Positions 25,435 to 61,773 of a DNA stretch of 64,000 nt are shown one piece after another. Numbering within the stretch: the stretch's first letter is position 1; each line of letters begins with the position of its first letter. The DNA comes from an uncultured Lacinutrix sp. GTDB taxonomy: Bacteria; Bacteroidota; Bacteroidia; Flavobacteriales; Flavobacteriaceae. The translations under genes and the position numbers were made by a program. The notes beneath the pieces are model-generated. The model did no database searches and was not told where the DNA came from. It saw only the letters and a list, made by a program, of their open reading frames with translations. The stretch is from positions 80,551 to 144,550 of the forward strand of contig CAKZMU010000009.1 of assembly GCA_937129145.1 (NCBI GenBank), given 5' to 3'.

Positions 25435-27126
25435 TTAAGATTTAATATCTCTCAATTTTAATTGTAACGATACTTTGCCGTTCCAATGGTTTTCATCAAC
25501 AGAATATACCGCTTTAAACAGTTTTCTGTTTTTTATCAAGCTCAGCTTGTCGCCTAACCCAAATCCTATACAGACTATTTTTTCTTTTCCTGATTGCGTA
25601 ACAGTAATTCGTAAATGTTTATCGTCTTCGCCAACACATTTGCCATAACCTGTATCTTTTAAATTATCTGTCATAAAAATCGGTGTCATATTTCCTGGAC
25701 CGAAAGGTGCAAATTGGTGCATAATGCGCATTAATTTATTATCAACTTGATGAAGATTAATTTTTAAGTCTATTTTAATCTCTGGAGTTAATAATGATTT
25801 GTTAATGGTTTTGGACACCTCATCTTCAAACGCTTGTTTAAAAGCATCGTAGTTTTCTTCCTTAAGTGTTAATCCAGCGGCATATTTATGTCCTCCAAAT
25901 TGTTCGATATGTTCACTACAAGCATCCAAAGCGTTATACACATCAAACCCTGACACCGAACGTGCCGAAGCTGCTAGCTTATCGCCGCTTTTGGTAAATA
26001 CCAAGGTTGGCCTATAATAAGTTTCGGTTAGCCTTGAAGCCACAATACCAATTACGCCTTTATGCCAAGTGTCTTGATAGACAACTGTTGTAAAGCGGTC
26101 TTGTTCATTGTTGTCTTCAATTTGTTGAAGAGCTTCAACAGTAATTTCTCTGTCTGCTTCTCGTCTATCTGTGTTGAATTCTTCTATTTCGGCAGCATAT
26201 TCTTCAGCTAATTTATAATCCATTTCAGTTAATAACGTCACCGCATAATTCCCATGTTTCATACGTCCAGCAGCGTTTATTCTTGGAGCGACAATAAACA
26301 CGACATCAGTAATCGTAAGTTCTTCCTTTTTAACCTGGTTGATAATAGCTTTAATGCCTGGTCTTGGATTGGAGTTAATCACTTGTATACCAAAATAGGC
26401 CAAAGCTCTGTTTTCACCAGTAATAGGAACAATATCGGCTCCAATTGCTGTGGCAACCAAATCTAAGTATTCAGCTAAATCTTCAACTTCTTTTCCTTCA
26501 TTTGAAGCCAAAGCTTGAATCAGCTTAAATCCAACACCACAACCACACAATTCTTTATATGGATACTCACAATCCTCACGTTTTGGGTCTAAAACTGCAA
26601 TTGCTACAGGCAATTTATTTCCTGGTCTGTGGTGGTCGCAAATAATAAAATCAATTCCTTTTTCTTTAGCATAAGCCACCTTATCTATGGCTTTTACGCC
26701 ACAGTCTAAGGCAATAATAAGTGTAAAATCGTTATCGTGAGCAAAATCAATACCTTTGAAGGAAACGCCATAACCTTCGTCATACCTATCAGGAATATAG
26801 GTGGCAATATTTTCTGACCGCGTTTTTAAGTAGGAGGACATTAAGGCTACAGACGACGTTCCATCCACATCATAATCGCCATATACTAAAATATTTTCGC
26901 CTTGAAGAAGTGCTACTTCAATTCTAGAAACAGCCAAATCCATATCCTTCATCAAAAAGGGATTGTGTAAATCGCTGAAGCTTGGTCTAAAAAACGTTTT
27001 GGCATCCTCGTAAGTTTCAATGCCTCGTTGTAGCAATAAAGTTGCCACCACATCATCTACTTGAAGTGCCTCTTTTAATGCTGCTACTTTGGCAGCTTCA
27101 GGTTTTGGTTTGAGCGTCCAGCGCAT
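25435..27126 (-). CDS. recJ: single-stranded-DNA-specific exonuclease RecJ
   Basis: DHH family motifs (GDYDVDG, DCGV, CDHHRP) plus a DHHA1 domain (GGHKYAAG). Confidence 0.92.
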   Translation of the reverse strand: MRWTLKPKPEAAKVAALKEALQVDDVVATLLLQRGIETYEDAKTFFRPSFSDLHNPFLMKDMDLAVSRIEVALLQGENILVYGDYDVDGTSSVALMSSYLKTRSENIATYIPDRYDEGYGVSFKGIDFAHDNDFTLIIALDCGVKAIDKVAYAKEKGIDFIICDHHRPGNKLPVAIAVLDPKREDCEYPYKELCGCGVGFKLIQALASNEGKEVEDLAEYLDLVATAIGADIVPITGENRALAYFGIQVINSNPRPGIKAIINQVKKEELTITDVVFIVAPRINAAGRMKHGNYAVTLLTEMDYKLAEEYAAEIEEFNTDRREADREITVEALQQIEDNNEQDRFTTVVYQDTWHKGVIGIVASRLTETYYRPTLVFTKSGDKLAASARSVSGFDVYNALDACSEHIEQFGGHKYAAGLTLKEENYDAFKQAFEDEVSKTINKSLLTPEIKIDLKINLHQVDNKLMRIMHQFAPFGPGNMTPIFMTDNLKDTGYGKCVGEDDKHLRITVTQSGKEKIVCIGFGLGDKLSLIKNRKLFKAVYSVDENHWNGKVSLQLKLRDIKS

Positions 27127-28951: not shown

Positions 28952-29497
28952 TTGAATAAAACAAACATGGAAAATAATTTACACAACAACTATGTCTTTA
29001 AAGCTATGGACGCATATCCATACGAGCTTGAAGAAACATTGGAAGCATTAAACTATGCTTTATCATATAACAATAAAGATGCGCAAGCATTATGCTTAAT
29101 GGGACGTGTTTATGCTGAACAATTAAAAGATTACGAAACAGCTAAACAATATTTTGCTGAAGCTATTGCGCAACACATGGAAATGCCAAAAACATATCCA
29201 TTTTATATCCAAACTTTATTATGGAATGGTGATTATGAAGAAGCAGATAAATTAATAACATTTGGACTAACTGTAAAGGGTACTGACAAAGCTTTATTAC
29301 AATTATTACAAGGTATTCTTTTTGAAAAACAGGGGGATTTTAAGGCTGCTATCAAGGCATATAAAAAAGCTAATAAAACAGCAACAAACAACTGCTTTAT
29401 TGAATATGTGAATAATGAAATATCTAGGGTTAAAAAGAAAATGGACCCCAGAAAGAAGAAGAAAAAGAAGTCTAACAAAAAAAGAAAGGGGAAATAA
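28952..29497 (+). CDS. TPR-like protein with poly-lysine C-terminal tail
   Basis: 181 aa with TPR-like helical repeats and the C-terminus PRKKKKKKSNKKRKGK. It is followed by the hairpin ATCGGCAA-TCTTGTC-TTGCCGAT. Confidence 0.55.
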   Translation: MNKTNMENNLHNNYVFKAMDAYPYELEETLEALNYALSYNNKDAQALCLMGRVYAEQLKDYETAKQYFAEAIAQHMEMPKTYPFYIQTLLWNGDYEEADKLITFGLTVKGTDKALLQLLQGILFEKQGDFKAAIKAYKKANKTATNNCFIEYVNNEISRVKKKMDPRKKKKKKSNKKRKGK

Positions 29498-29529
29498 AAA
29501 AATCGGCAATCTTGTCTTGCCGATTTAAT

Positions 29530-29613
29530 GGGAACTCGTCAACGTTGGAGAGTTGGTGCAGATTGTAAACCTGTTGCTTAAATGCTAAGAAAGTTCGAAT
29601 CTTTCAGTTCCCA
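29530..29613 (+). tRNA. tRNA-Tyr-like (anticodon GTA), class II, slightly non-canonical
   Basis: Acceptor GGGAACT/AGTTCCC, anticodon loop TTGTAAA, variable arm CTTA-AATGC-TAAG, and T arm GAAAG-TTCGAAT-CTTTC. Anomalies are C at position 8 and an A.C pair closing the anticodon stem. Confidence 0.7.
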
Positions 29614-29627
29614 CAAATAAATAGATT

Positions 29628-29700
29628 GACAAGGTGGCTGAACGGTTAAGGCAACAGACTGCAAATCTGTTTTTTGTGAGTTCAAATCTCACCCTTGTCT
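29628..29700 (+). tRNA. tRNA-Cys (anticodon GCA)
   Basis: Acceptor GACAAGG/CCTTGTC, anticodon arm ACAGA-CTGCAAA-TCTGT, T arm GTGAG-TTCAAAT-CTCAC, and discriminator U as expected for Cys. Confidence 0.85.
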
Positions 29701-29706
29701 CAAAAT

Positions 29707-29779
29707 AGTATCGTAGCTCAATGGCTAGAGCGCTCGGTTGTCTCCCGAGAAGTTGCGGGTTCGAATCTCGTCGGTACTG
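29707..29779 (+). tRNA. tRNA-Asp (anticodon GTC)
   Basis: Acceptor AGTATCG/CGGTACT, D arm GCTC/GAGC, anticodon arm CTCGG-TTGTCTC-CCGAG, T arm GCGGG-TTCGAAT-CTCGT, and discriminator G. Confidence 0.85.
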
Positions 29780-29780
29780 C

Positions 29781-29844
29781 GAAGCAGTTTAAGAGATGAG
29801 AAGTTTACCCTGAGCGTAGTCGAAGGGAATCTTGTCGGTACTGC
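29781..29844 (+). repeat. conserved 46-nt tRNA-trailer element (copy A) plus an 18-nt duplicate of the tRNA-Asp 3' end
   Basis: 29781-29826 is GAAGCAGTTTAAGAGATGAGAAGTTTACCCTGAGCGTAGTCGAAGG. 29827-29844 (GAATCTTGTCGGTACTGC) repeats 29763-29780 with 1 mismatch. The core matches copy B at 30181-30226. Confidence 0.8.
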
Positions 29845-29848
29845 AAAT

Positions 29849-29931
29849 CTGGGAGGATAATCCCGAAGGTTCGGGAGTGGTTTACTCGCTTTGGAAGCGA
29901 GAGGTTGTAGGTTCAAATCCTACCTCTCAGA
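29849..29931 (+). tRNA. tRNA-Pro-like (anticodon TGG) with a hairpin insertion in the D-loop
   Basis: Acceptor CTGGGAG/CTCTCAG (C1:G72 and A73, as in bacterial tRNA-Pro), anticodon arm CTCGC-TTTGGAA-GCGAG, and T arm GTAGG-TTCAAAT-CCTAC. The D region is about 10 nt too long because of the hairpin TCCCGAAGGTTCGGGA (29861-29876). Confidence 0.6.
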
Positions 29932-29937
29932 CAAAAT

Positions 29938-30009
29938 ACTCCGTTAGTCAAATGGCTAAGACGCCTGACTTTCTATCAGGAATTAAGGGTTCAATTCCCT
30001 TACGGAGTA
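29938..30009 (+). tRNA. tRNA-Glu (anticodon TTC)
   Basis: Acceptor ACTCCGT/ACGGAGT, anticodon arm CCTGA-CTTTCTA-TCAGG, and T arm AAGGG-TTCAATT-CCCTT. Confidence 0.8.
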
Positions 30010-30014
30010 CACAT

Positions 30015-30100
30015 TGAGATATAGCTTAATTGGTAGAGCGTCGCTCTCATAAGGCGAATGGTTTAGGTTCTCCCGATAGTTATCGGGACTAATATCTCAA
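30015..30100 (+). tRNA. tRNA-Met/Ile2-like (anticodon CAT) with a hairpin insertion in the T-loop
   Basis: Acceptor TGAGATA/TATCTCA, D arm GCTT/GAGC, and anticodon arm TCGCT-CTCATAA-GGCGA. The T-stem is TTAG(G)/(A)CTAA, but the T-loop is TTC followed by the 18-nt hairpin TCCCGATAGTTATCGGGA (30071-30088). Confidence 0.55.
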
Positions 30101-30106
30101 CAACAC

Positions 30107-30179
30107 GCAGGAATGGCGAAACGGCAAACGCACTCGACTTAGAATCGAGAAACTGGGAGTTCGAATCTCTCTTCCTGTA
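30107..30179 (+). tRNA. tRNA-Leu-like (anticodon TAG) with a short (5-nt) variable loop
   Basis: Acceptor GCAGGAA/TTCCTGT, a class-II-like D arm (TGGCGAAACGGCAAACGC), anticodon arm CTCGA-CTTAGAA-TCGAG, variable region of only AAACT, and T arm GGGAG-TTCGAAT-CTCTC. Confidence 0.65.
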
Positions 30180-30180
30180 C

Positions 30181-30246
30181 GAAGTAAGGAAAGAGATGAG
30201 AAGTTTATGCTGAGCGAAGTCGAAGTGAATCTCTCTTCCTGTACGA
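30181..30246 (+). repeat. conserved 46-nt tRNA-trailer element (copy B) plus a 20-nt duplicate of the tRNA-Leu(TAG) 3' end
   Basis: 30181-30226 is GAAGTAAGGAAAGAGATGAGAAGTTTATGCTGAGCGAAGTCGAAGT. 30227-30246 (GAATCTCTCTTCCTGTACGA) exactly repeats 30163-30182. Confidence 0.8.
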
Positions 30247-30247
30247 T

Positions 30248-30321
30248 GCTCCACTAGCCCAAATGGAAGAGGCAACAGTTTTAAGCGCTGTTAAGTCCAA
30301 GTTCGAATCTTGGGTGGAGTA
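30248..30321 (+). tRNA. tRNA-Leu-like (anticodon TAA) with a short variable loop
   Basis: Acceptor GCTCCAC/GTGGAGT (G1:U72), anticodon arm ACAGT-TTTAAGC-GCTGT (alternatively AACAG/CTGTT with a 9-nt loop), variable TAAGT, and T arm CCAAG-TTCGAAT-CTTGG. Confidence 0.6.
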
Positions 30322-30327
30322 CAAAAT

Positions 30328-30451
30328 AAGCTTATGGTGTAATGGAAAGCACACAAGGTTTAGCTCATGCATATCTATTTCAAGAAATAGGTATTCGTGA
30401 ATGCAAAGCATTTCGAACCTTGGAGTATGGGTTCAAGTCCTATTAAGCTTA
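30328..30451 (+). tRNA. tRNA-like gene (probably Arg, anticodon TCG) with a 52-nt insertion in the anticodon loop
   Basis: Acceptor AAGCTTA/TAAGCTT, D arm GTGT/GCAC, anticodon stem CAAGG (30354-58) / CCTTG (30418-22) enclosing 59 nt, and T arm ATGGG-TTCAAGT-CCTAT. The last 7 loop nt, TTTCGAA, form a canonical loop. The insert at 30359-30410 contains the hairpin CTATTTC-AAG-GAAATAG. Confidence 0.55.
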
Positions 30452-30456
30452 CAAAA

Positions 30457-30527
30457 TAACCTGTGGTGTAACGGTAACACTCAAGATTTTGATTCTTGTA
30501 TTATAGGTTCGAATCCTATCAGGTTAT
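30457..30527 (+). tRNA. tRNA-Gln (anticodon TTG)
   Basis: Acceptor TAACCTG/CAGGTTA, D arm GTGT/ACAC, anticodon arm CAAGA-TTTTGAT-TCTTG, and T arm ATAGG-TTCGAAT-CCTAT. Confidence 0.8.
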
Positions 30528-30535
30528 CAAAAAAT

Positions 30536-30608
30536 GGAACAGTAGCAAAGTTGGTCAATGCGTCGGACTGAAAATCTGAAAATACAGGTTCAATTCCTGT
30601 CTGTTCCA
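30536..30608 (+). tRNA. tRNA-Phe (anticodon GAA)
   Basis: Acceptor GGAACAG/CTGTTCC, anticodon arm TCGGA-CTGAAAA-TCTGA, and T arm ACAGG-TTCAATT-CCTGT. Confidence 0.82.
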
Positions 30609-30768
30609 CTAAAATTAAAGATTCCTGCCTATGCAGGAAATAATATCAAGCTGGTCTTGTTGAGTGTTTCGGTATAGCACTATTGTATAAATCGTTGCAG
30701 AAATGCATCATGAGTTTATGTTCAACTAGACTTGAAGGTTTTGACTGTTAACCAAAAAATGGTCTCCC

Positions 30769-30803
30769 CCTATAGGTCGTGGGTTCGACTCCCACTTATC
30801 CCA
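30769..30803 (+). pseudogene. orphan tRNA 3' half (anticodon-stem 3' strand, variable loop, T arm, acceptor 3' strand)
   Basis: CCTAT-AGGTC-GTGGG-TTCGACT-CCCAC-TTATCCC-A. No matching 5' half lies upstream. The complementary 5' half lies 3 nt downstream. Confidence 0.6.
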
Positions 30804-30806
30804 ATT

Positions 30807-30873
30807 GGGATAGTAGTTCAGTGGTTAGAACAATAGGATGTAGGTGTTGCTGGTTCGATTCCAGTCGTTTGCT
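30807..30873 (+). pseudogene. tRNA 5' half (acceptor 5' strand, D arm, anticodon-stem 5' strand) fused to an unrelated T arm and acceptor 3' strand
   Basis: GGGATAG-TA-GTTC-AGTGGTTA-GAAC-A-ATAGG is followed by ATGTAGGTGTT, then GCTGG-TTCGATT-CCAGT-CGTTTGC. The acceptor strands within this unit do not pair. GGGATAG and ATAGG pair perfectly with the upstream fragment at 30769-30803. Confidence 0.55.
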
Positions 30874-30888
30874 TGGAGAAATTCCTTG

Positions 30889-30950
30889 GCAATAGTAGCT
30901 CAATTGGTAGAGCACTGCACTTTTAATGCAGGTTTGGACTCAAAATCCAC
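30889..30950 (+). pseudogene. tRNA-Lys-like (anticodon TTT) fragment lacking a matching acceptor 3' strand
   Basis: GCAATAG-TA-GCTC-AATTGGTA-GAGC-A-CTGCA-CTTTTAA-TGCAG is followed by a degenerate T arm (TGGA-CTCAAAA-TCCA). No CTATTGC-like 3' strand lies downstream. Confidence 0.5.
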
Positions 30951-31450
30951 AATCAAAAGCCCATCATCTTTTAAAACTGATGACCAACGCAGATTGTCAT
31001 TCTGCTCAACAAAAATGACAAAAATAGTAGATTGCAAGTCGGCTTTAGATTCCTGCATTACTGACGCATCGGTCAACACTGGTCGTGGGAATGACAAAAC
31101 TAGAGCAGTCTTGAAAGTGCCTTGAAATACTGATTTTTAATAGTAGAAGTGGTTACTGTTTTGTAATAAGAAATTATATAAATCTGATTATCGATTCATA
31201 TAGTTGTCACAATACTCAGCACTAATTACAGGCACTATTAATATGAGTATTTCCGCACCAGAAAAATGATTTGCTTTCTGCTATTTTTAACAATGAAGAG
31301 ATATAAAAATATACTTCAATTAATGATGAACTCGTCATTGTTTTTTGAAGTTGGTAAGCCTTCCGTTACAAGAATTGCCGCCACGCTCAAAAATGGGCAA
31401 CAATAAATGTTTAATCTTCCTGAAATAAATTCAGGATAAAAAAATTAGAA

Positions 31451-32551
31451 ATGATGAAACGAGTAAGAATTAATGTTGGAGAAGTAGGATTGGTTTTCAA
31501 AAGAGGTGATTACAAAAGAGTAATTACTCAAGGAAAAAACTGGTTAGGGTTTGGCGAGCGTGTTTTAACCTATAACTTAGCTCATGCTTTCGTTGCTCCA
31601 AAAACACTAGAACTCTTGCTAAAAGACGAGGTGTTGGAGGCAATGTTAGACATTATTGAAGTAAAGGATGGTGAACTTGTATTGGTTTACGAAAAAGGGA
31701 GCTTTAAAACTGTTTTAACTGCTGGTCGTTATGTGTACTGGAAGGGTTTGATTAATCGTGAATATACACGCGTTGATTTAAGCAAAATTTATATTACTGA
31801 AAACATTGACAAAGCATTGTTTAGTAACTATGAATTAAGCAAATACATTCGAGTTTTTGAAGTAGCTGCTTACGAAAAAGCTATCCTTTTGGTAGATGAT
31901 GTATATACAAAGACGCTTGACGGCGGTACATACCGATTCTGGAGAAATGATACCACAATTAAAATTGCTAAGGCTGATTTACGTCAGTTACAACTAGAAA
32001 TTGCTGGACAAGAATTGTTAACTAAAGATAAAGCAGCTATTCGTATCAACTTTTACACACAGTATAAAGTAACAGATATTGAAAAGGCTTTACTAGGAAA
32101 CAAAGATTATGAAAAGCAATTATACATTGCTATGCAATTGGTATTGCGCGCTTACATTGGTACTTACACACTAGATGAATTGCTAGAGCGTAAAGAAAAC
32201 ATTGCAGAAGCTGTATTTGAAGATGTTAAAGCAAGTGCATCAAAATTAGGTGTAAGCGTTTTAAGCTGCGGTATTAGAGATGTGATTTTAACCGGAGATA
32301 TGAAAGAGATTATGAACCAGGTTTTAGTTGCACAAAAGAAAGCGCAAGCAAATACAATTACAAGACGTGAAGAAACAGCTTCTACTCGTAGCTTGCTAAA
32401 TACGGCAAAGTTGATGGAAGAGAATAACATGCTGTACAAGCTAAAAGAAATGGAGTATGTTGAAAAAATCGCTGAGAAAATTGGTGAAATCACAGTCTCA
32501 GGTAATGGTGGAATGGTAACACAATTGAAAGAGATTTTCTCTGGAAAATAA
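31451..32551 (+). CDS. slipin/SPFH (band-7) family protein
   Basis: 366 aa. The C-terminal half has an SPFH-like core and a coiled-coil (QKKAQANTITRREETASTR). Confidence 0.7.
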   Translation: MMKRVRINVGEVGLVFKRGDYKRVITQGKNWLGFGERVLTYNLAHAFVAPKTLELLLKDEVLEAMLDIIEVKDGELVLVYEKGSFKTVLTAGRYVYWKGLINREYTRVDLSKIYITENIDKALFSNYELSKYIRVFEVAAYEKAILLVDDVYTKTLDGGTYRFWRNDTTIKIAKADLRQLQLEIAGQELLTKDKAAIRINFYTQYKVTDIEKALLGNKDYEKQLYIAMQLVLRAYIGTYTLDELLERKENIAEAVFEDVKASASKLGVSVLSCGIRDVILTGDMKEIMNQVLVAQKKAQANTITRREETASTRSLLNTAKLMEENNMLYKLKEMEYVEKIAEKIGEITVSGNGGMVTQLKEIFSGK

Positions 32552-61698: not shown

Positions 61699-61712
61699 GT
61701 GGTCCCACTTGG
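61699..61712. repeat. 14-bp repeat (tRNA-proximal copy) overlapping the tRNA(CAT) 3' end
   Basis: GTGGTCCCACTTGG is identical to 51936-51949. Confidence 0.6.
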
Positions 61713-61773
61713 GCTCGAACCAAGGACCCTCTGATTATGAGTCAGATGCTCTAACCAACTGAGCTATGGGACC
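61700..61773 (-). tRNA. tRNA with anticodon CAT (elongator Met or Ile2/lysidine type)
   Basis: The reverse complement reads GGTCCCA-TA-GCTC-AGTTGGTTA-GAGC-A-TCTGA-CTCATAA-TCAGA-GGGTC-CTTGG-TTCGAGC-CCAAG-TGGGACC-A. The cloverleaf is GC-rich and canonical, and is followed on the minus strand by a terminator hairpin. Confidence 0.88.

What the first reader, a model, noticed from the sequence alone, without database searches (positions are those of the whole stretch)
29849..30100. A shared TCCCGA-N(4-6)-TCGGGA hairpin inserted into the D-loop of tRNA-Pro-like and the T-loop of tRNA-Met-like
The hairpin TCCCGAAGGTTCGGGA (29861-29876) interrupts the D-loop of an otherwise good tRNA-Pro (C1:G72, A73, anticodon TGG). 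TCCCGATAGTTATCGGGA (30071-30088) follows T54-T55-C56 in the T-loop of a CAT-anticodon tRNA. Both inserts have the same stem sequence, and both sit in the two loops that normally form the tRNA elbow. Bacterial tRNA introns described so far are group I introns in the anticodon loop. Short hairpin insertions in the D- and T-loops are not a described bacterial feature. They could be mini-introns or intervening sequences, a small palindromic mobile repeat, or a protein-recognition tag on tRNA-like RNAs.
Basis: seen in the sequence. Interest (0 to 1): 0.7.

Follow-up and report, generated by a model that had tools for sequence, protein, structure and literature searches.

The report
Conserved hairpin grafted onto tRNA elbows
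Two tRNA genes in a marine flavobacterial tRNA cluster have part of their D-loop or T-loop replaced by the same small hairpin, which recurs at the same loop positions in other tRNAs of related species and looks like a deliberately kept RNA module, not an intron or random damage.

Summary
TCCCGA-AGGT-TCGGGA (29861-29876) sits in the D-arm of a Pro(TGG) tRNA gene (29849-29931). TCCCGAT-AGTT-ATCGGGA (30071-30088) follows GGTTC in a CAT tRNA gene (30015-30100). These are the only two copies in 64 kb (none expected by chance).

The window is a Flavobacteriaceae chromosome, not a phage. The genes belong to a variable tRNA array between a TPR-like gene and a Band_7 gene, a locus shared by many genera. 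Across 162 such loci the exact hairpin occurs 32 times inside this interval and once in 1.06 Mb outside it.

About ten copies are loop grafts in five tRNA types. Those in T-loops have identical boundaries, and all have an invariant stem and AGNN loops. Orthologues without the hairpin have normal loops. The hairpin replaces loop nucleotides, so excising it would not restore a tRNA. It is therefore not an intron.

The same hairpin closes the acceptor-like stem of a neighbouring YrlA-like tRNA mimic. Stems are more conserved than the host genes (P about 0.01).

Best reading: a copied, selectively retained RNA hairpin that remodels the tRNA elbow. The main rival is a selfish DNA palindrome. Function is unknown.

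The parts
29849..29931 (+). Pro(TGG) tRNA gene whose D-arm carries the hairpin. It belongs to a family conserved across genera.
   Evidence: Sequence. Rfam tRNA 36.3 bits with the D-arm skipped. Cloverleaf fold, z = -3.0. About 49 family members. Covariation: 98.8% of cells paired and 12 of 20 pairs with double changes; the window copy keeps all pairs. ARAGORN called 38 Pro(TGG) tRNAs in these loci, which I take to be the hairpin-free orthologues.
29861..29876 (+). Hairpin 1: TCCCGA-AGGT-TCGGGA, 6 bp plus an AGNN tetraloop. It replaces the 5' part of the D-loop; GTGG (the G18 G19 equivalent) remains as a 3' bulge.
   Evidence: -8.2 kcal/mol on its own. Alignment to orthologues. The same graft occurs in L138 (Hyunsoonleella pacifica) with loop AGTT.
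30015..30100 (+). CAT-anticodon tRNA gene whose T-loop is destroyed by the hairpin.
   Evidence: Sequence. Rfam tRNA 30.6 bits, model positions 6-65 only. Fold z = -2.7. Seven orthologues (L123, L125, L129, L139, L145, L151, L202) have the normal T-arm TTAGG-TTCGATT-CCTAA.
30071..30088 (+). Hairpin 2: TCCCGAT-AGTT-ATCGGGA (7 bp, or 6 bp with loop TAGTTA). It follows GGTTC and replaces G57-C61; the T-stem 3' strand CTAA follows.
   Evidence: -9.1 kcal/mol. Identical boundaries in L144, L180, L267 and L272, and one base later in L275.
29530..30609 (+). The tRNA array that holds both genes: Tyr-like, Cys, Asp, sp1, Pro-like, Glu, CAT, Leu(TAG), sp2, Leu(TAA), interrupted Arg(TCG)-like, Gln, Phe.
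   Evidence: Homologous arrays lie between the TPR-like gene and Band_7 in many genera.
30769..30837 (+). YrlA-like permuted tRNA module: T-arm, closed acceptor-like hairpin TTATCCC-AATT-GGGATAG, D-arm. In other species the closed hairpin at this position is TCCCGA-NNNN-TCGGGA.
   Evidence: Rfam YrlA 32.9 bits, below the gathering score of 69. L126 alignment to the YrlA consensus. Hairpin instances in L126, L165, L193, L244 and L251.

Best explanation
The hairpin is a discrete, sequence-conserved RNA module: UCCCGA(U)-AGNN-(A)UCGGGA. It has been copied into the elbow-forming loops of individual tRNA genes in a variable, probably accessory, tRNA array of Flavobacteriaceae.

It replaces the outer part of the loop. 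As a result the D-stem or T-stem is prolonged by a stable 6-7 bp helix. Only a short bulge remains: GUGG in the D-arm case and GUUC in the T-arm case, that is, the G18 G19 or U54 U55 C56 equivalents.

The product is a remodelled tRNA-like RNA that keeps its acceptor, anticodon and other arms. In the CAT gene it lacks a canonical T-loop, so it is unlikely to work as a normal translating tRNA.

The same hairpin sequence is the closed acceptor-like stem of a conserved YrlA-type tRNA mimic within about 2 kb of the tRNA genes in several species. The most economical origin is therefore copy-and-paste within the locus (ectopic conversion or template switching), followed by retention under selection. 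That selection is most likely for recognition by a factor that reads this hairpin, or for blocking enzymes that read the tRNA elbow.

Shown: recurrence, identical T-loop boundaries, replacement rather than interruption, stem conservation, and an intact host cloverleaf.
Inferred: retention in the RNA, the copying mechanism, and the existence of a binding partner.
For: 1. The motif is non-random and confined to the array. There are 2 copies in the window with 0 expected. Across 162 loci there are 32 in 404 kb of TPR-to-Band_7 interval against 1 in 1.06 Mb of flanks and 0 in shuffles; 15 remain after removing ordinary 7-nt-loop anticodon arms.
2. Loop grafts recur in different tRNA types and genera. 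T-loop grafts share the boundaries GGTTC | hairpin | C + T-stem 3' strand: CAT (window), Arg-ACG (L144, L180), Pro (L267, L272), Leu-TAG (L275, one base later). D-loop grafts occur in Pro (window, L138).
3. Hairpin-free orthologues have normal loops, including the closest relatives by Band_7 (L125, L205).
4. The host gene is under structural selection. In the Pro family 98.8% of cells are paired, 12 of 20 pairs show compensatory double changes, and 0 of 500 shuffles reach this. The window copy keeps every pair.
5. In three orthologous hairpin-bearing pairs, stems changed at 1 of 36 positions while gene bodies differ at 34 of 206 (16.5%), P = 0.012.
6. All nine loop-graft loops are AGNN (AGGT, AGTT, AGCA, AGCT). 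Variation is only in the last two positions, an asymmetry that a symmetric DNA palindrome would not show.
7. The same hairpin forms the closed acceptor-like stem of YrlA-like modules, at the position where Rfam's YrlA consensus has a 6-bp closed stem.
8. Predicted folds keep the cloverleaf plus the hairpin.
Against: - There are no expression data. Whether the RNAs are made, processed, CCA-tailed or charged is unknown.
- Several copies are perfect 18-nt DNA palindromes (TCCCGATAGCTATCGGGA), and presence or absence varies among close relatives. This also fits a selfish DNA element.
- The stem-conservation test rests on only three pairs and assumes the insertions are orthologous. Recent horizontal spread or homogenisation by conversion would give the same result.
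- The arrays also carry other small insertions with DNA-level signatures, so they may simply tolerate junk.
- No binding protein or copying enzyme was identified, and none is encoded inside the arrays examined.
- The D-loop and T-loop target sequences are not alike, so one site-specific mechanism does not obviously explain both.
- Loop grafts are rare: about 10 among roughly 770 array tRNAs.
Confidence: 0.45

Rival explanations
1. Selfish DNA palindrome. A miniature palindromic element, or the end product of a DNA-level hairpin-forming process, inserts into stem-loop DNA of tRNA genes and inactivates them. The stem is conserved because an enzyme acting in trans needs it. The array tolerates it because the genes are redundant.
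For: - Perfect palindromes exist in L148, L267 and L275, and all loops lie within one change of the palindromic AGCT.
- Presence or absence differs among close relatives, and there are two copies in one array.
- The same arrays hold a 52-nt insert that targets a stem plus TTCGAA loop in either orientation, a DNA-level signature. They also hold the sp element, with duplicated tRNA 3' ends and tandem copies.
- The window locus is a recombination mosaic.
Against: - Only 1 of 33 copies lies outside the array interval in 1.06 Mb, and there is none elsewhere in the 64-kb window.
- No transposase was found in or beside the arrays.
- The hairpin replaces host nucleotides and is not a clean insertion.
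- The stem is identical across genera whose Band_7 proteins are only 55-90% identical, whereas from my own knowledge (not checked here) REP-type repeats usually differ between species.
- Loop variation is strand-asymmetric (AG fixed).
- Hairpin-bearing genes keep compensated cloverleaf pairs.
Confidence: 0.3
2. Mini-intron or intervening sequence. The hairpin is cut out of the transcript. Either the halves are rejoined to give a working tRNA, or they are left as a split tRNA.
For: - The position in exposed loops and the compact, stable stem superficially resemble archaeal non-canonical introns and rRNA intervening sequences.
- The array does contain a clean T-loop insert of another kind whose removal would restore TTCGAAT.
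Against: - Compared with orthologues, G57-C61 of the T-loop and about five D-loop nucleotides are missing. Precise removal would leave GGTTC|CTAA and GATAA|GTGG, which are not functional loops.
- There is no bulge-helix-bulge geometry: the helix is perfect, with a bulge on one side only.
- No group I intron or ribozyme family matched even at E up to 10.
- A 6-7 bp stem is far shorter than known RNase III substrates (established knowledge).
Confidence: 0.05
3. Inert pseudogenes. The two genes are dead copies in a decaying array, and the shared hairpin has no role at either the RNA or the DNA level beyond shared ancestry or local conversion.
For: - The array varies in content. Some species have no recognisable tRNA units between the TPR-like gene and the conserved downstream RNA (for example L128, L131, L134, L136), while 83 loci carry three or more ARAGORN tRNAs.
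- Relatives show chimeric and truncated units.
- The CAT gene has lost its T-loop, and a canonical tRNA-Met exists elsewhere in the window (61699-61773).
Against: - The same graft recurs, with identical boundaries at the T-loop, in at least five tRNA types.
- Stems are conserved above the level of the gene body.
- The Pro-like copy carries private compensatory changes (T-A in the T-stem, G-C at pair 7-66) that keep pairing.
Confidence: 0.12
4. DNA operator. The 16-18 bp inverted repeat is a binding site for a dimeric DNA-binding protein that controls transcription through the array.
For: The inverted-repeat architecture is perfect or near-perfect, and the copies lie inside a probable polycistronic unit.
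Against: - Exact placement in the D- and T-loops of several different tRNA genes, and use as an RNA helix in the YrlA-like module with compensatory variants (TCCCAA/TTGGGA, TCCCGT/ACGGGA, TCCTGA/TCAGGA), point to RNA pairing.
- Loop conservation is asymmetric.
- There is no adjacent regulator gene.
Confidence: 0.03

Closest known systems
YrlA-type bacterial Y RNA tRNA-like module (Rfam RF02553; Chen et al. 2014, PMC4201824)
   Same: The identical hairpin sequence occupies the closed acceptor-like stem between a T-arm and a D-arm in modules next to the array (L126, L165, L193, L244). Rfam's YrlA consensus has a 6-bp closed stem at exactly that position. Both are tRNA mimics that are not expected to be aminoacylated.
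   Different: The two genes in the finding have the normal tRNA arm order, and the hairpin is in the D- or T-loop, not in the acceptor position. Scores are below the family threshold (32.9-39.6 against 69 bits). No Ro60 gene appears in the neighbourhoods examined.
Archaeal tRNA introns at non-canonical positions, including D- and T-loops (bulge-helix-bulge, EndA; for example PMC3241643)
   Same: Short extra sequence in the D- or T-loop of a tRNA gene.
   Different: There is no bulge-helix-bulge motif, removal does not restore a canonical loop, and the host is a bacterium.
Bacterial group I introns in tRNA anticodon loops
   Same: An interruption of a bacterial tRNA gene.
   Different: The hairpin is 16-18 nt against more than 200 nt, lies in the D/T-loop and not the anticodon loop, has no catalytic core, and gives no Rfam match.
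REP/BIME and other small palindromic repeats (RAYT-mobilised)
   Same: A short GC-rich palindrome whose presence or absence varies between relatives.
   Different: The hairpin is confined to one locus, is much shorter, has the same sequence across genera, and replaces host bases. No RAYT or other transposase was seen.
Naturally non-canonical tRNAs (tRNA-Sec with a 6-bp D-stem and 4-nt loop; armless mitochondrial tRNAs; review PMC7609411)
   Same: Remodelled D- or T-arms that alter the elbow. A 6-bp helix with a tetraloop in the D-arm resembles the tRNA-Sec D-arm.
   Different: The anticodons are TGG and CAT, the acceptor is 7 bp, and the helix sits on top of a 3-bp D-stem with a GUGG bulge. 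The review lists no bacterial tRNA with a hairpin in place of the T-loop.
Accessory tRNA gene arrays of bacteria (cyanobacterial, Firmicutes and mycobacterial arrays; from my own knowledge, not checked here)
   Same: A long, variable cluster of extra tRNA genes that includes aberrant members.
   Different: This array has a fixed chromosomal position across a whole family, next to a multi-module tRNA mimic. It carries three recurrent kinds of small insert.

Membership tests
Group I intron in a bacterial tRNA | Located in the anticodon loop | tested here: not met
   The hairpins lie in the D-loop (29861-29876) and the T-loop (30071-30088).
Group I intron in a bacterial tRNA | Conserved catalytic core of at least about 200 nt, detectable with the Rfam intron models | tested here: not met
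   The inserts are 16 and 18 nt. No intron or ribozyme family matched at E up to 10 in 29300-31300.
Archaeal-type (bulge-helix-bulge) tRNA intron | Two 3-nt bulges separated by a 4-bp helix at the exon-intron boundaries | tested here: not met
   The folds show an uninterrupted 6-7 bp helix with a bulge on one side only (GUGG or GUUC).
Archaeal-type (bulge-helix-bulge) tRNA intron | Removal restores a canonical tRNA | tested here: not met
   Orthologues show that GATTC (57-61) and about 5 D-loop nucleotides are absent from the window genes.
Archaeal-type (bulge-helix-bulge) tRNA intron | Splicing endonuclease (EndA) encoded by the organism | not tested
   Only a 64-kb window of the genome was available.
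REP/MITE-like palindromic repeat | Many copies dispersed in intergenic DNA of the genome | tested here: not met
   There are 2 copies in 64 kb, both in tRNA genes. In related loci there is 1 copy in 1.06 Mb outside the array interval against 32 inside. The whole genome was not scanned.
REP/MITE-like palindromic repeat | Cognate transposase (for example a RAYT) in the genome | not testable with these tools
   None was seen in or beside the arrays.
YrlA (Y RNA-like) tRNA mimic | Permuted order: T-arm, closed acceptor-like stem, D-arm | tested here: not met
   This applies to the two genes of the finding, which have the normal tRNA order. The feature is met by the neighbouring module 30769-30837 and by L126 4289-4355.
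YrlA (Y RNA-like) tRNA mimic | Score at or above the Rfam gathering threshold (69 bits) | tested here: not met
   32.9 bits (window), and 39.6 and 37.4 bits (L126).
YrlA (Y RNA-like) tRNA mimic | Encoded next to a Ro60 (TROVE) gene | tested here: not met
   There is no TROVE domain among the called genes within about 10 kb in L121, L123 or L124. The flanking window genes that were scanned are TPR, Band_7 and CMD.
Canonical elongator or initiator tRNA | 7-nt T-loop with the T54-A58 pair and a G53-C61 closing pair | tested here: not met
   CAT gene: positions 57-61 are replaced by the hairpin. The Pro-like gene keeps a normal T-arm but has an altered D-arm.
tRNA pseudogene (decaying) | Loss of stem complementarity relative to functional orthologues | tested here: not met
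   The Pro-like copy pairs at all 20 cloverleaf pairs, with private compensatory changes. The acceptor, D and anticodon stems of the CAT gene are intact.

The most novel reading that the evidence does not exclude
Flavobacteriaceae maintain, at a fixed locus, a system of tRNA-derived RNAs: a variable tRNA array plus a multi-module YrlA-like mimic. In this system a specific hairpin, UCCCGA-AGNN-UCGGGA, serves as a portable recognition handle. Grafting it onto the D- or T-loop converts an ordinary tRNA into a non-translating, elbow-modified RNA. That RNA would be read by a dedicated, still unknown protein or RNA partner, for example as a decoy for, or regulator of, enzymes that recognise the tRNA elbow.
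Probability: 0.25. Interest if true: 0.8.

Novelty: new variant of a known kind. Interest (0 to 1): 0.62.

Why it matters
Bacterial tRNA genes are thought to be interrupted only by group I introns in the anticodon loop, and the D-loop/T-loop elbow is among the most conserved RNA structures known. This locus shows a recurrent, sequence-defined hairpin that rebuilds the elbow arms of otherwise well-kept tRNA genes in several genera. The same hairpin is used in a neighbouring Y-RNA-like tRNA mimic.

If the RNAs are expressed, this would be a natural route by which tRNAs are converted into tRNA-like RNAs with new partners. It would also give a defined bait for finding the factor that reads the hairpin.

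If the hairpin is instead selfish DNA, it would be an unusually small element with specificity for tRNA loops. It sits alongside a 52-nt element that targets the TTCGAA loop in either orientation, which makes the array a compact model for how structured-RNA genes are colonised. Either outcome can be tested directly in cultured strains that carry the hairpin.

Tried and rejected
1. Phage origin. The dense, odd tRNA cluster suggested a phage. Phage-database BLAST gave only short generic tRNA hits. Two IMG/VR protein-anchored scans found nothing. RecJ homologues then showed a Flavobacteriaceae chromosome.
2. A loose hairpin pattern in IMG/VR returned 120 loci, none of them related to the window's tRNA cluster. 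The T-loop-specific pattern gave two hits, both in coding sequence. The 52-nt insert pattern gave none.
3. Ribozyme readings. I compared the sp element by eye with the hammerhead core and it does not fit. I also considered HDV-like and other self-cleaving ribozymes for the sp element and the hairpins. No Rfam ribozyme matched at E up to 10.
4. A larger element bounded by TCCCGA...TCGGGA arms: none within 1.5 kb.
5. An origin of the hairpin arms from a tRNA acceptor stem: no array tRNA has TCGGGA/TCCCGA acceptor strands. An origin from T60 plus the T-stem 3' strand is possible but weak (59 of 761 begin TCCCG).
6. An enzyme encoded inside the arrays: only an SBF transporter and one RNaseH-like ORF were found.
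7. An exact-protein lookup to find other assemblies of the same species returned only a 1.5-kb contig.
8. The sigma-70 promoter scan was uninformative: 6 sites against 7.4 expected. From my own knowledge, Bacteroidota promoters differ from that consensus.
Full report
**1. The observation**

The sequence shows TCCCGAAGGTTCGGGA at 29861-29876 and TCCCGATAGTTATCGGGA at 30071-30088. A search for TCCCGA-N(2-10)-TCGGGA on both strands of the 64-kb window finds only these two sites, with none in 100 dinucleotide-preserving shuffles.

- The first site lies in a gene at 29849-29931. It has acceptor CTGGGAG/CTCTCAG, discriminator A, anticodon arm CTCGC-TTTGGAA-GCGAG and a normal T-arm.
- The second lies in a gene at 30015-30100. 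It has acceptor TGAGATA/TATCTCA, a normal D-arm, anticodon arm TCGCT-CTCATAA-GGCGA, and then TTAGG-TTC-[hairpin]-CTAA.
- ARAGORN calls neither gene. Rfam's tRNA model matches them only at 36.3 and 30.6 bits, by skipping the D-arm or stopping at the T-arm.
- Predicted folds keep the cloverleaf with the extra hairpin (z = -3.0 and -2.7).

The second hairpin can also be drawn as 7 bp with an AGTT loop.

**2. Where this is**

I first suspected a phage tRNA cluster. The phage database gave only short generic tRNA hits, and viral-contig scans anchored on neighbouring proteins found nothing.

The RecJ gene at 25435-27126 is 85-90% identical to RecJ of Pontimicrobium, Lacinutrix, Aquaticitalea and other Flavobacteriaceae. 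The neighbours are ordinary chromosomal genes. The window is therefore a flavobacterial chromosome.

The two genes belong to a tRNA array at 29530-30609. It lies between a TPR-like gene (28952-29497) and a region of conserved non-coding sequence, followed by a Band_7/SPFH gene (31451-32551).

Anchoring on Band_7 retrieved 80 reference-genome loci and 80 metagenome loci.
- The TPR-like gene is found upstream in 70 of them.
- Recognisable array units are present in most of them, and 83 loci carry three or more ARAGORN tRNAs.
- The TPR-to-Band_7 interval ranges from 833 to 4,879 nt.
- Some species have no recognisable tRNA units there at all (for example L128, L131, L134, L136).

The array is thus old in position but variable in content, which suggests that it is accessory. 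A canonical tRNA-Met and a tRNA-Ala lie elsewhere in the window.

**3. Orthologues without the hairpin**

In Pontimicrobium sp. SW4 (L123) and Gaetbulibacter sp. S0825 (L125, the closest by Band_7 at 92%), the CAT tRNA reads ...GGTTTAGGTTCGATTCCTAATATCTCAAC, a normal T-arm. The same holds in L129, L139, L145, L151 and L202.

The Pro(TGG) gene is a family found in about 49 copies, with D region GATAAC-GGTGG-TTGTTTA. ARAGORN called 38 Pro(TGG) tRNAs in these loci, which I take to be its hairpin-free members.

Alignment shows that the window copy has TCCCGAAGGTT-CGGGAG where the others have CGGTGG. In the CAT gene, GATTC (positions 57-61) is missing and the hairpin stands in its place.

So the hairpin replaces loop nucleotides. 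Cutting it out would leave GGTTC|CTAA or GATAA|GTGG, neither of which is a functional loop. This removes the mini-intron reading. So do the absence of a bulge-helix-bulge geometry and the absence of any intron or ribozyme match at E up to 10.

**4. The hairpin recurs, and only in this locus**

In 1.46 Mb from 162 loci, the exact motif (loop of 3-8 nt) occurs 32 times in the 404 kb between the TPR-like gene and Band_7. It occurs once in the remaining 1.06 Mb, and never in shuffles. Fifteen copies remain after setting aside 7-nt-loop cases, which are ordinary anticodon arms of a second Asp(GTC) tRNA type.

The informative copies fall into these classes:
- **(a) D-loop of the Pro gene:** window and L138 (Hyunsoonleella pacifica).
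- **(b) T-loop, directly after GGTTC and followed by C plus the T-stem 3' strand:** CAT (window), Arg-ACG (L144 and L180), Pro (L267 and L272), Leu-TAG (L275, one base later).
- **(c) Replacement of the T-arm** in Asp and Pro genes: TCCCGA-TAGCTA-TCGGGA in L148, and TCCCGC with CTTG, CTAG, TTTG, TTAG or CATA loops in L147, L154, L164, L199 and L159.
- **(d) The closed acceptor-like stem of a permuted tRNA module** downstream of the array: L126, L165, L193, L244 and L251.
- **(e) A few copies in spacers.**

Loop grafts are rare, about 10 among 772 ARAGORN-called array tRNAs. Within the T-loop class their boundaries are the same in different tRNA types from different genera. Chance or ordinary decay cannot explain that.

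**5. Signs of constraint**

- The Pro family is a well-constrained RNA. 98.8% of cells are paired and 12 of 20 pairs have compensatory double changes. No shuffle reaches this, and slid registers drop to about 45% paired.
- The window copy pairs at every position. It has private changes that improve pairing (T-A in the T-stem, G-C at pair 7-66). It does not look like a decaying pseudogene.
- In three pairs of hairpin-bearing orthologues from different genera, gene bodies differ at 34 of 206 aligned positions but hairpin stems at 1 of 36 (P = 0.012). This test assumes that the insertions are orthologous.
- All nine loop-graft loops are AGNN (AGGT, AGTT, AGCA, AGCT). They differ only at the last two positions. 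A symmetric DNA palindrome would be expected to vary symmetrically, so the asymmetry points to a strand-specific, RNA-level constraint (inference).
- In class (d) the stem does covary (TCCCAA/TTGGGA, TCCCGT/ACGGGA, TCCTGA/TCAGGA, TTCCGA/TCGGAA). This shows that it is an RNA helix there.

**6. Link to a Y-RNA-like tRNA mimic**

Downstream of the array, nearly all loci share conserved sequence (window about 30610-30760). It is followed by one or more modules with the order T-arm, closed hairpin, D-arm (window 30769-30837).

Rfam's YrlA model aligns to these modules at 33-40 bits, below its threshold of 69. Its consensus has a 6-bp closed stem exactly where L126 has UCCCGA-AAAU-UCGGGA. Chen et al. 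[quoted passage not shown] No Ro60 gene is near.

So a native copy of the hairpin exists within about 2 kb of the tRNA genes in several species. That makes it a plausible donor for copying, and a hint that one factor may read the hairpin in both contexts. Both points are inference.

**7. How it most likely works**

Shown:
- The hairpin is a discrete module that recurs, at the T-loop with fixed boundaries.
- It replaces the outer loop.
- It prolongs the D- or T-stem.
- It leaves GUGG or GUUC as a one-sided bulge.

Inferred:
- The RNA is made and keeps the hairpin.
- The remaining bulge may still offer the G19-C56-type contact to the intact partner loop.
- The canonical T-loop of the CAT RNA is lost, so it should be a poor substrate for elbow-reading enzymes and for translation.
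- The module was copied within the locus and is retained for recognition or for blocking such enzymes.

I put this at 0.45.

The main rival (0.30) is a selfish DNA palindrome. It is supported by perfect 18-nt palindromes, by presence/absence polymorphism, and by the company the hairpin keeps (see section 8). It is weakened by confinement to one locus, replacement of host bases, identity of the stem across genera, loop asymmetry, and the lack of any transposase.

Inert pseudogenes (0.12), an intron or intervening sequence (0.05) and a DNA operator (0.03) fit worse.

**8. Other things in the array**

- **A 52-nt insert.** An insert of typically 49-54 nt (52 in the window) has the form ATGCnnnGCATTCAYGA...GAGCTAA. 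It sits after TTCGAA in the T-loop of many tRNA types, with 26 sense copies. Its removal restores TTCGAAT. In the window (30360-30411) and in L166 it lies inverted in the TTTCGAA anticodon loop of two unrelated Arg(TCG)-like genes. TTCGAA is a palindrome, so the flip argues for DNA-level targeting of a stem plus TTCGAA loop.
- **The sp element.** The tRNA-Asp and tRNA-Leu(TAG) genes are each followed by a conserved 45-nt spacer plus a copy of their own last 17-20 nt (29781-29848 and 30181-30245; 83% identity between spacers). There are 20 copies in 14 loci, tandemly duplicated in L208, L198 and L160. The spacer's 5' part covaries with the T-stem.
- **Mosaic ancestry.** The window's TPR-like gene is closest to L126 and L127 (about 90%), whereas its Band_7 is closest to L125 and L205 (about 91%). 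The array therefore sits at a recombination junction. That may explain why the D-loop graft is shared with Hyunsoonleella but absent from Gaetbulibacter.

**9. Comparison with what is known, and novelty**

The hairpin fails the tests for group I introns, archaeal-type introns, REP-like repeats and, for the two genes themselves, YrlA membership. It works most like a structural graft on a tRNA-like RNA.

My searches of the held literature and a review of non-canonical tRNAs found no bacterial example of a hairpin replacing part of the D- or T-loop, and no description of this flavobacterial locus. These searches are not exhaustive.

I rate it a new variant of a known kind (non-canonical tRNA or tRNA mimic), with interest 0.62. 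The pattern is real, recurrent and unexpected for the tRNA elbow, but function and expression are unproven.

Noticed in passing
window 30327-30451 (insert 30360-30411, minus orientation); also L166, and 26 sense copies such as L127:2978, L137:3187, L149:3177, L193:2493: A conserved insert of typically 49-54 nt (52 in the window; ATGCnnnGCATTCAYGA...GAGCTAA) sits after TTCGAA in the T-loop of many different array tRNAs, and removing it restores TTCGAAT. In the window and in L166 it lies inverted in the TTTCGAA anticodon loop of two unrelated Arg(TCG)-like genes. That suggests a DNA-level element targeting a stem plus the palindromic TTCGAA loop. It is absent from viral contigs.
   Followed up: partly
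window 29781-29848 and 30181-30245; L208:1800-1935 (tandem); 20 copies in 14 loci: The 'sp' element: a conserved core of about 45 nt (GATGAGAAGTTTAYSCTGAGCGNAGTCGAAGG) followed by a direct copy of the last 17-20 nt of the tRNA it follows (Asp or Leu-TAG). The spacer's 5' part covaries with that tRNA's T-stem (GAGAT/ATCTC against GGGAT/ATCCC). It is sometimes tandemly duplicated and has no Rfam match. It may form a minihelix-like structure or an alternative 3' half.
   Followed up: partly
window 30610-31450 (modules at 30769-30837 and about 30845-30955); L126:4160-4560; L165:4370-4730: Conserved non-coding region between the array and Band_7 in nearly all loci. It has a strongly conserved 5' segment (ATCAAGCTGGTCTTGTTGNGTGTTTCGGTATAGCAC...), then one or two YrlA-like permuted tRNA modules, a tRNA-like 5' part and a conserved hairpin (CATCATCTTTTAAAACTGATG). 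Only sub-threshold Rfam hits were found (YrlA, tRNA, tmRNA fragments). It may be an undescribed multi-module tRNA-mimic RNA without a nearby Ro60 gene.
   Followed up: partly
window 30107-30180 and 30248-30322: The two 'Leu' tRNAs (anticodons TAG and TAA) are 74-75 nt class I molecules without the long variable arm that bacterial tRNA-Leu normally has. Yet they are 93-99% identical across several genera, which is unusual for leucine tRNAs.
   Followed up: no
L147:2634, L154:734, L164:3320, L199:3001, L148:1621, L159:1538: In Aquimarina and relatives, Asp(GTC)-like genes and one Pro-like gene have the T-arm position occupied by a 6-bp tetraloop hairpin, preceded in the Asp-like genes by GTTCG/GTTCA/GTTGA (TCCCGC-CTTG/CTAG/TTTG/TTAG/CATA-GCGGGA, or TCCCGA-TAGCTA-TCGGGA). 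Its 5' arm resembles the sequence that ordinarily forms T60 plus the T-stem 3' strand.
   Followed up: partly
window 28952-29497 versus 31451-32551: Mosaic ancestry across the array. The TPR-like gene is about 90% identical to L126 and L127 (Jejuia, Wocania) but only 54-56% to L125 and L205. Band_7 is 91-92% identical to L125 and L205 (Gaetbulibacter-like). This implies recombination within or beside the array.
   Followed up: partly
L208:2455-2505: A further kind of insertion, about 50 nt in the D-arm region of a Leu(TAA) tRNA (GAAGAG-ATTGGCAAGTAAAAACTATAGTTTTTACGAAGGCACCGAGCGTAGCTCT-GG). It was not seen in the window.
   Followed up: no
L124 (JGI metagenome contig, RecJ 90% identical): This close relative by RecJ goes directly from the UDG gene to the CMD gene. 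It lacks the whole block of peptidase M28, Band_7, the tRNA array and the TPR-like gene at this position.
   Followed up: no
L179:3413-3898: An RNaseH-like (PF04308) ORF of 161 aa is embedded within the tRNA array of a Tenacibaculum genome. It is not present in most arrays.
   Followed up: no
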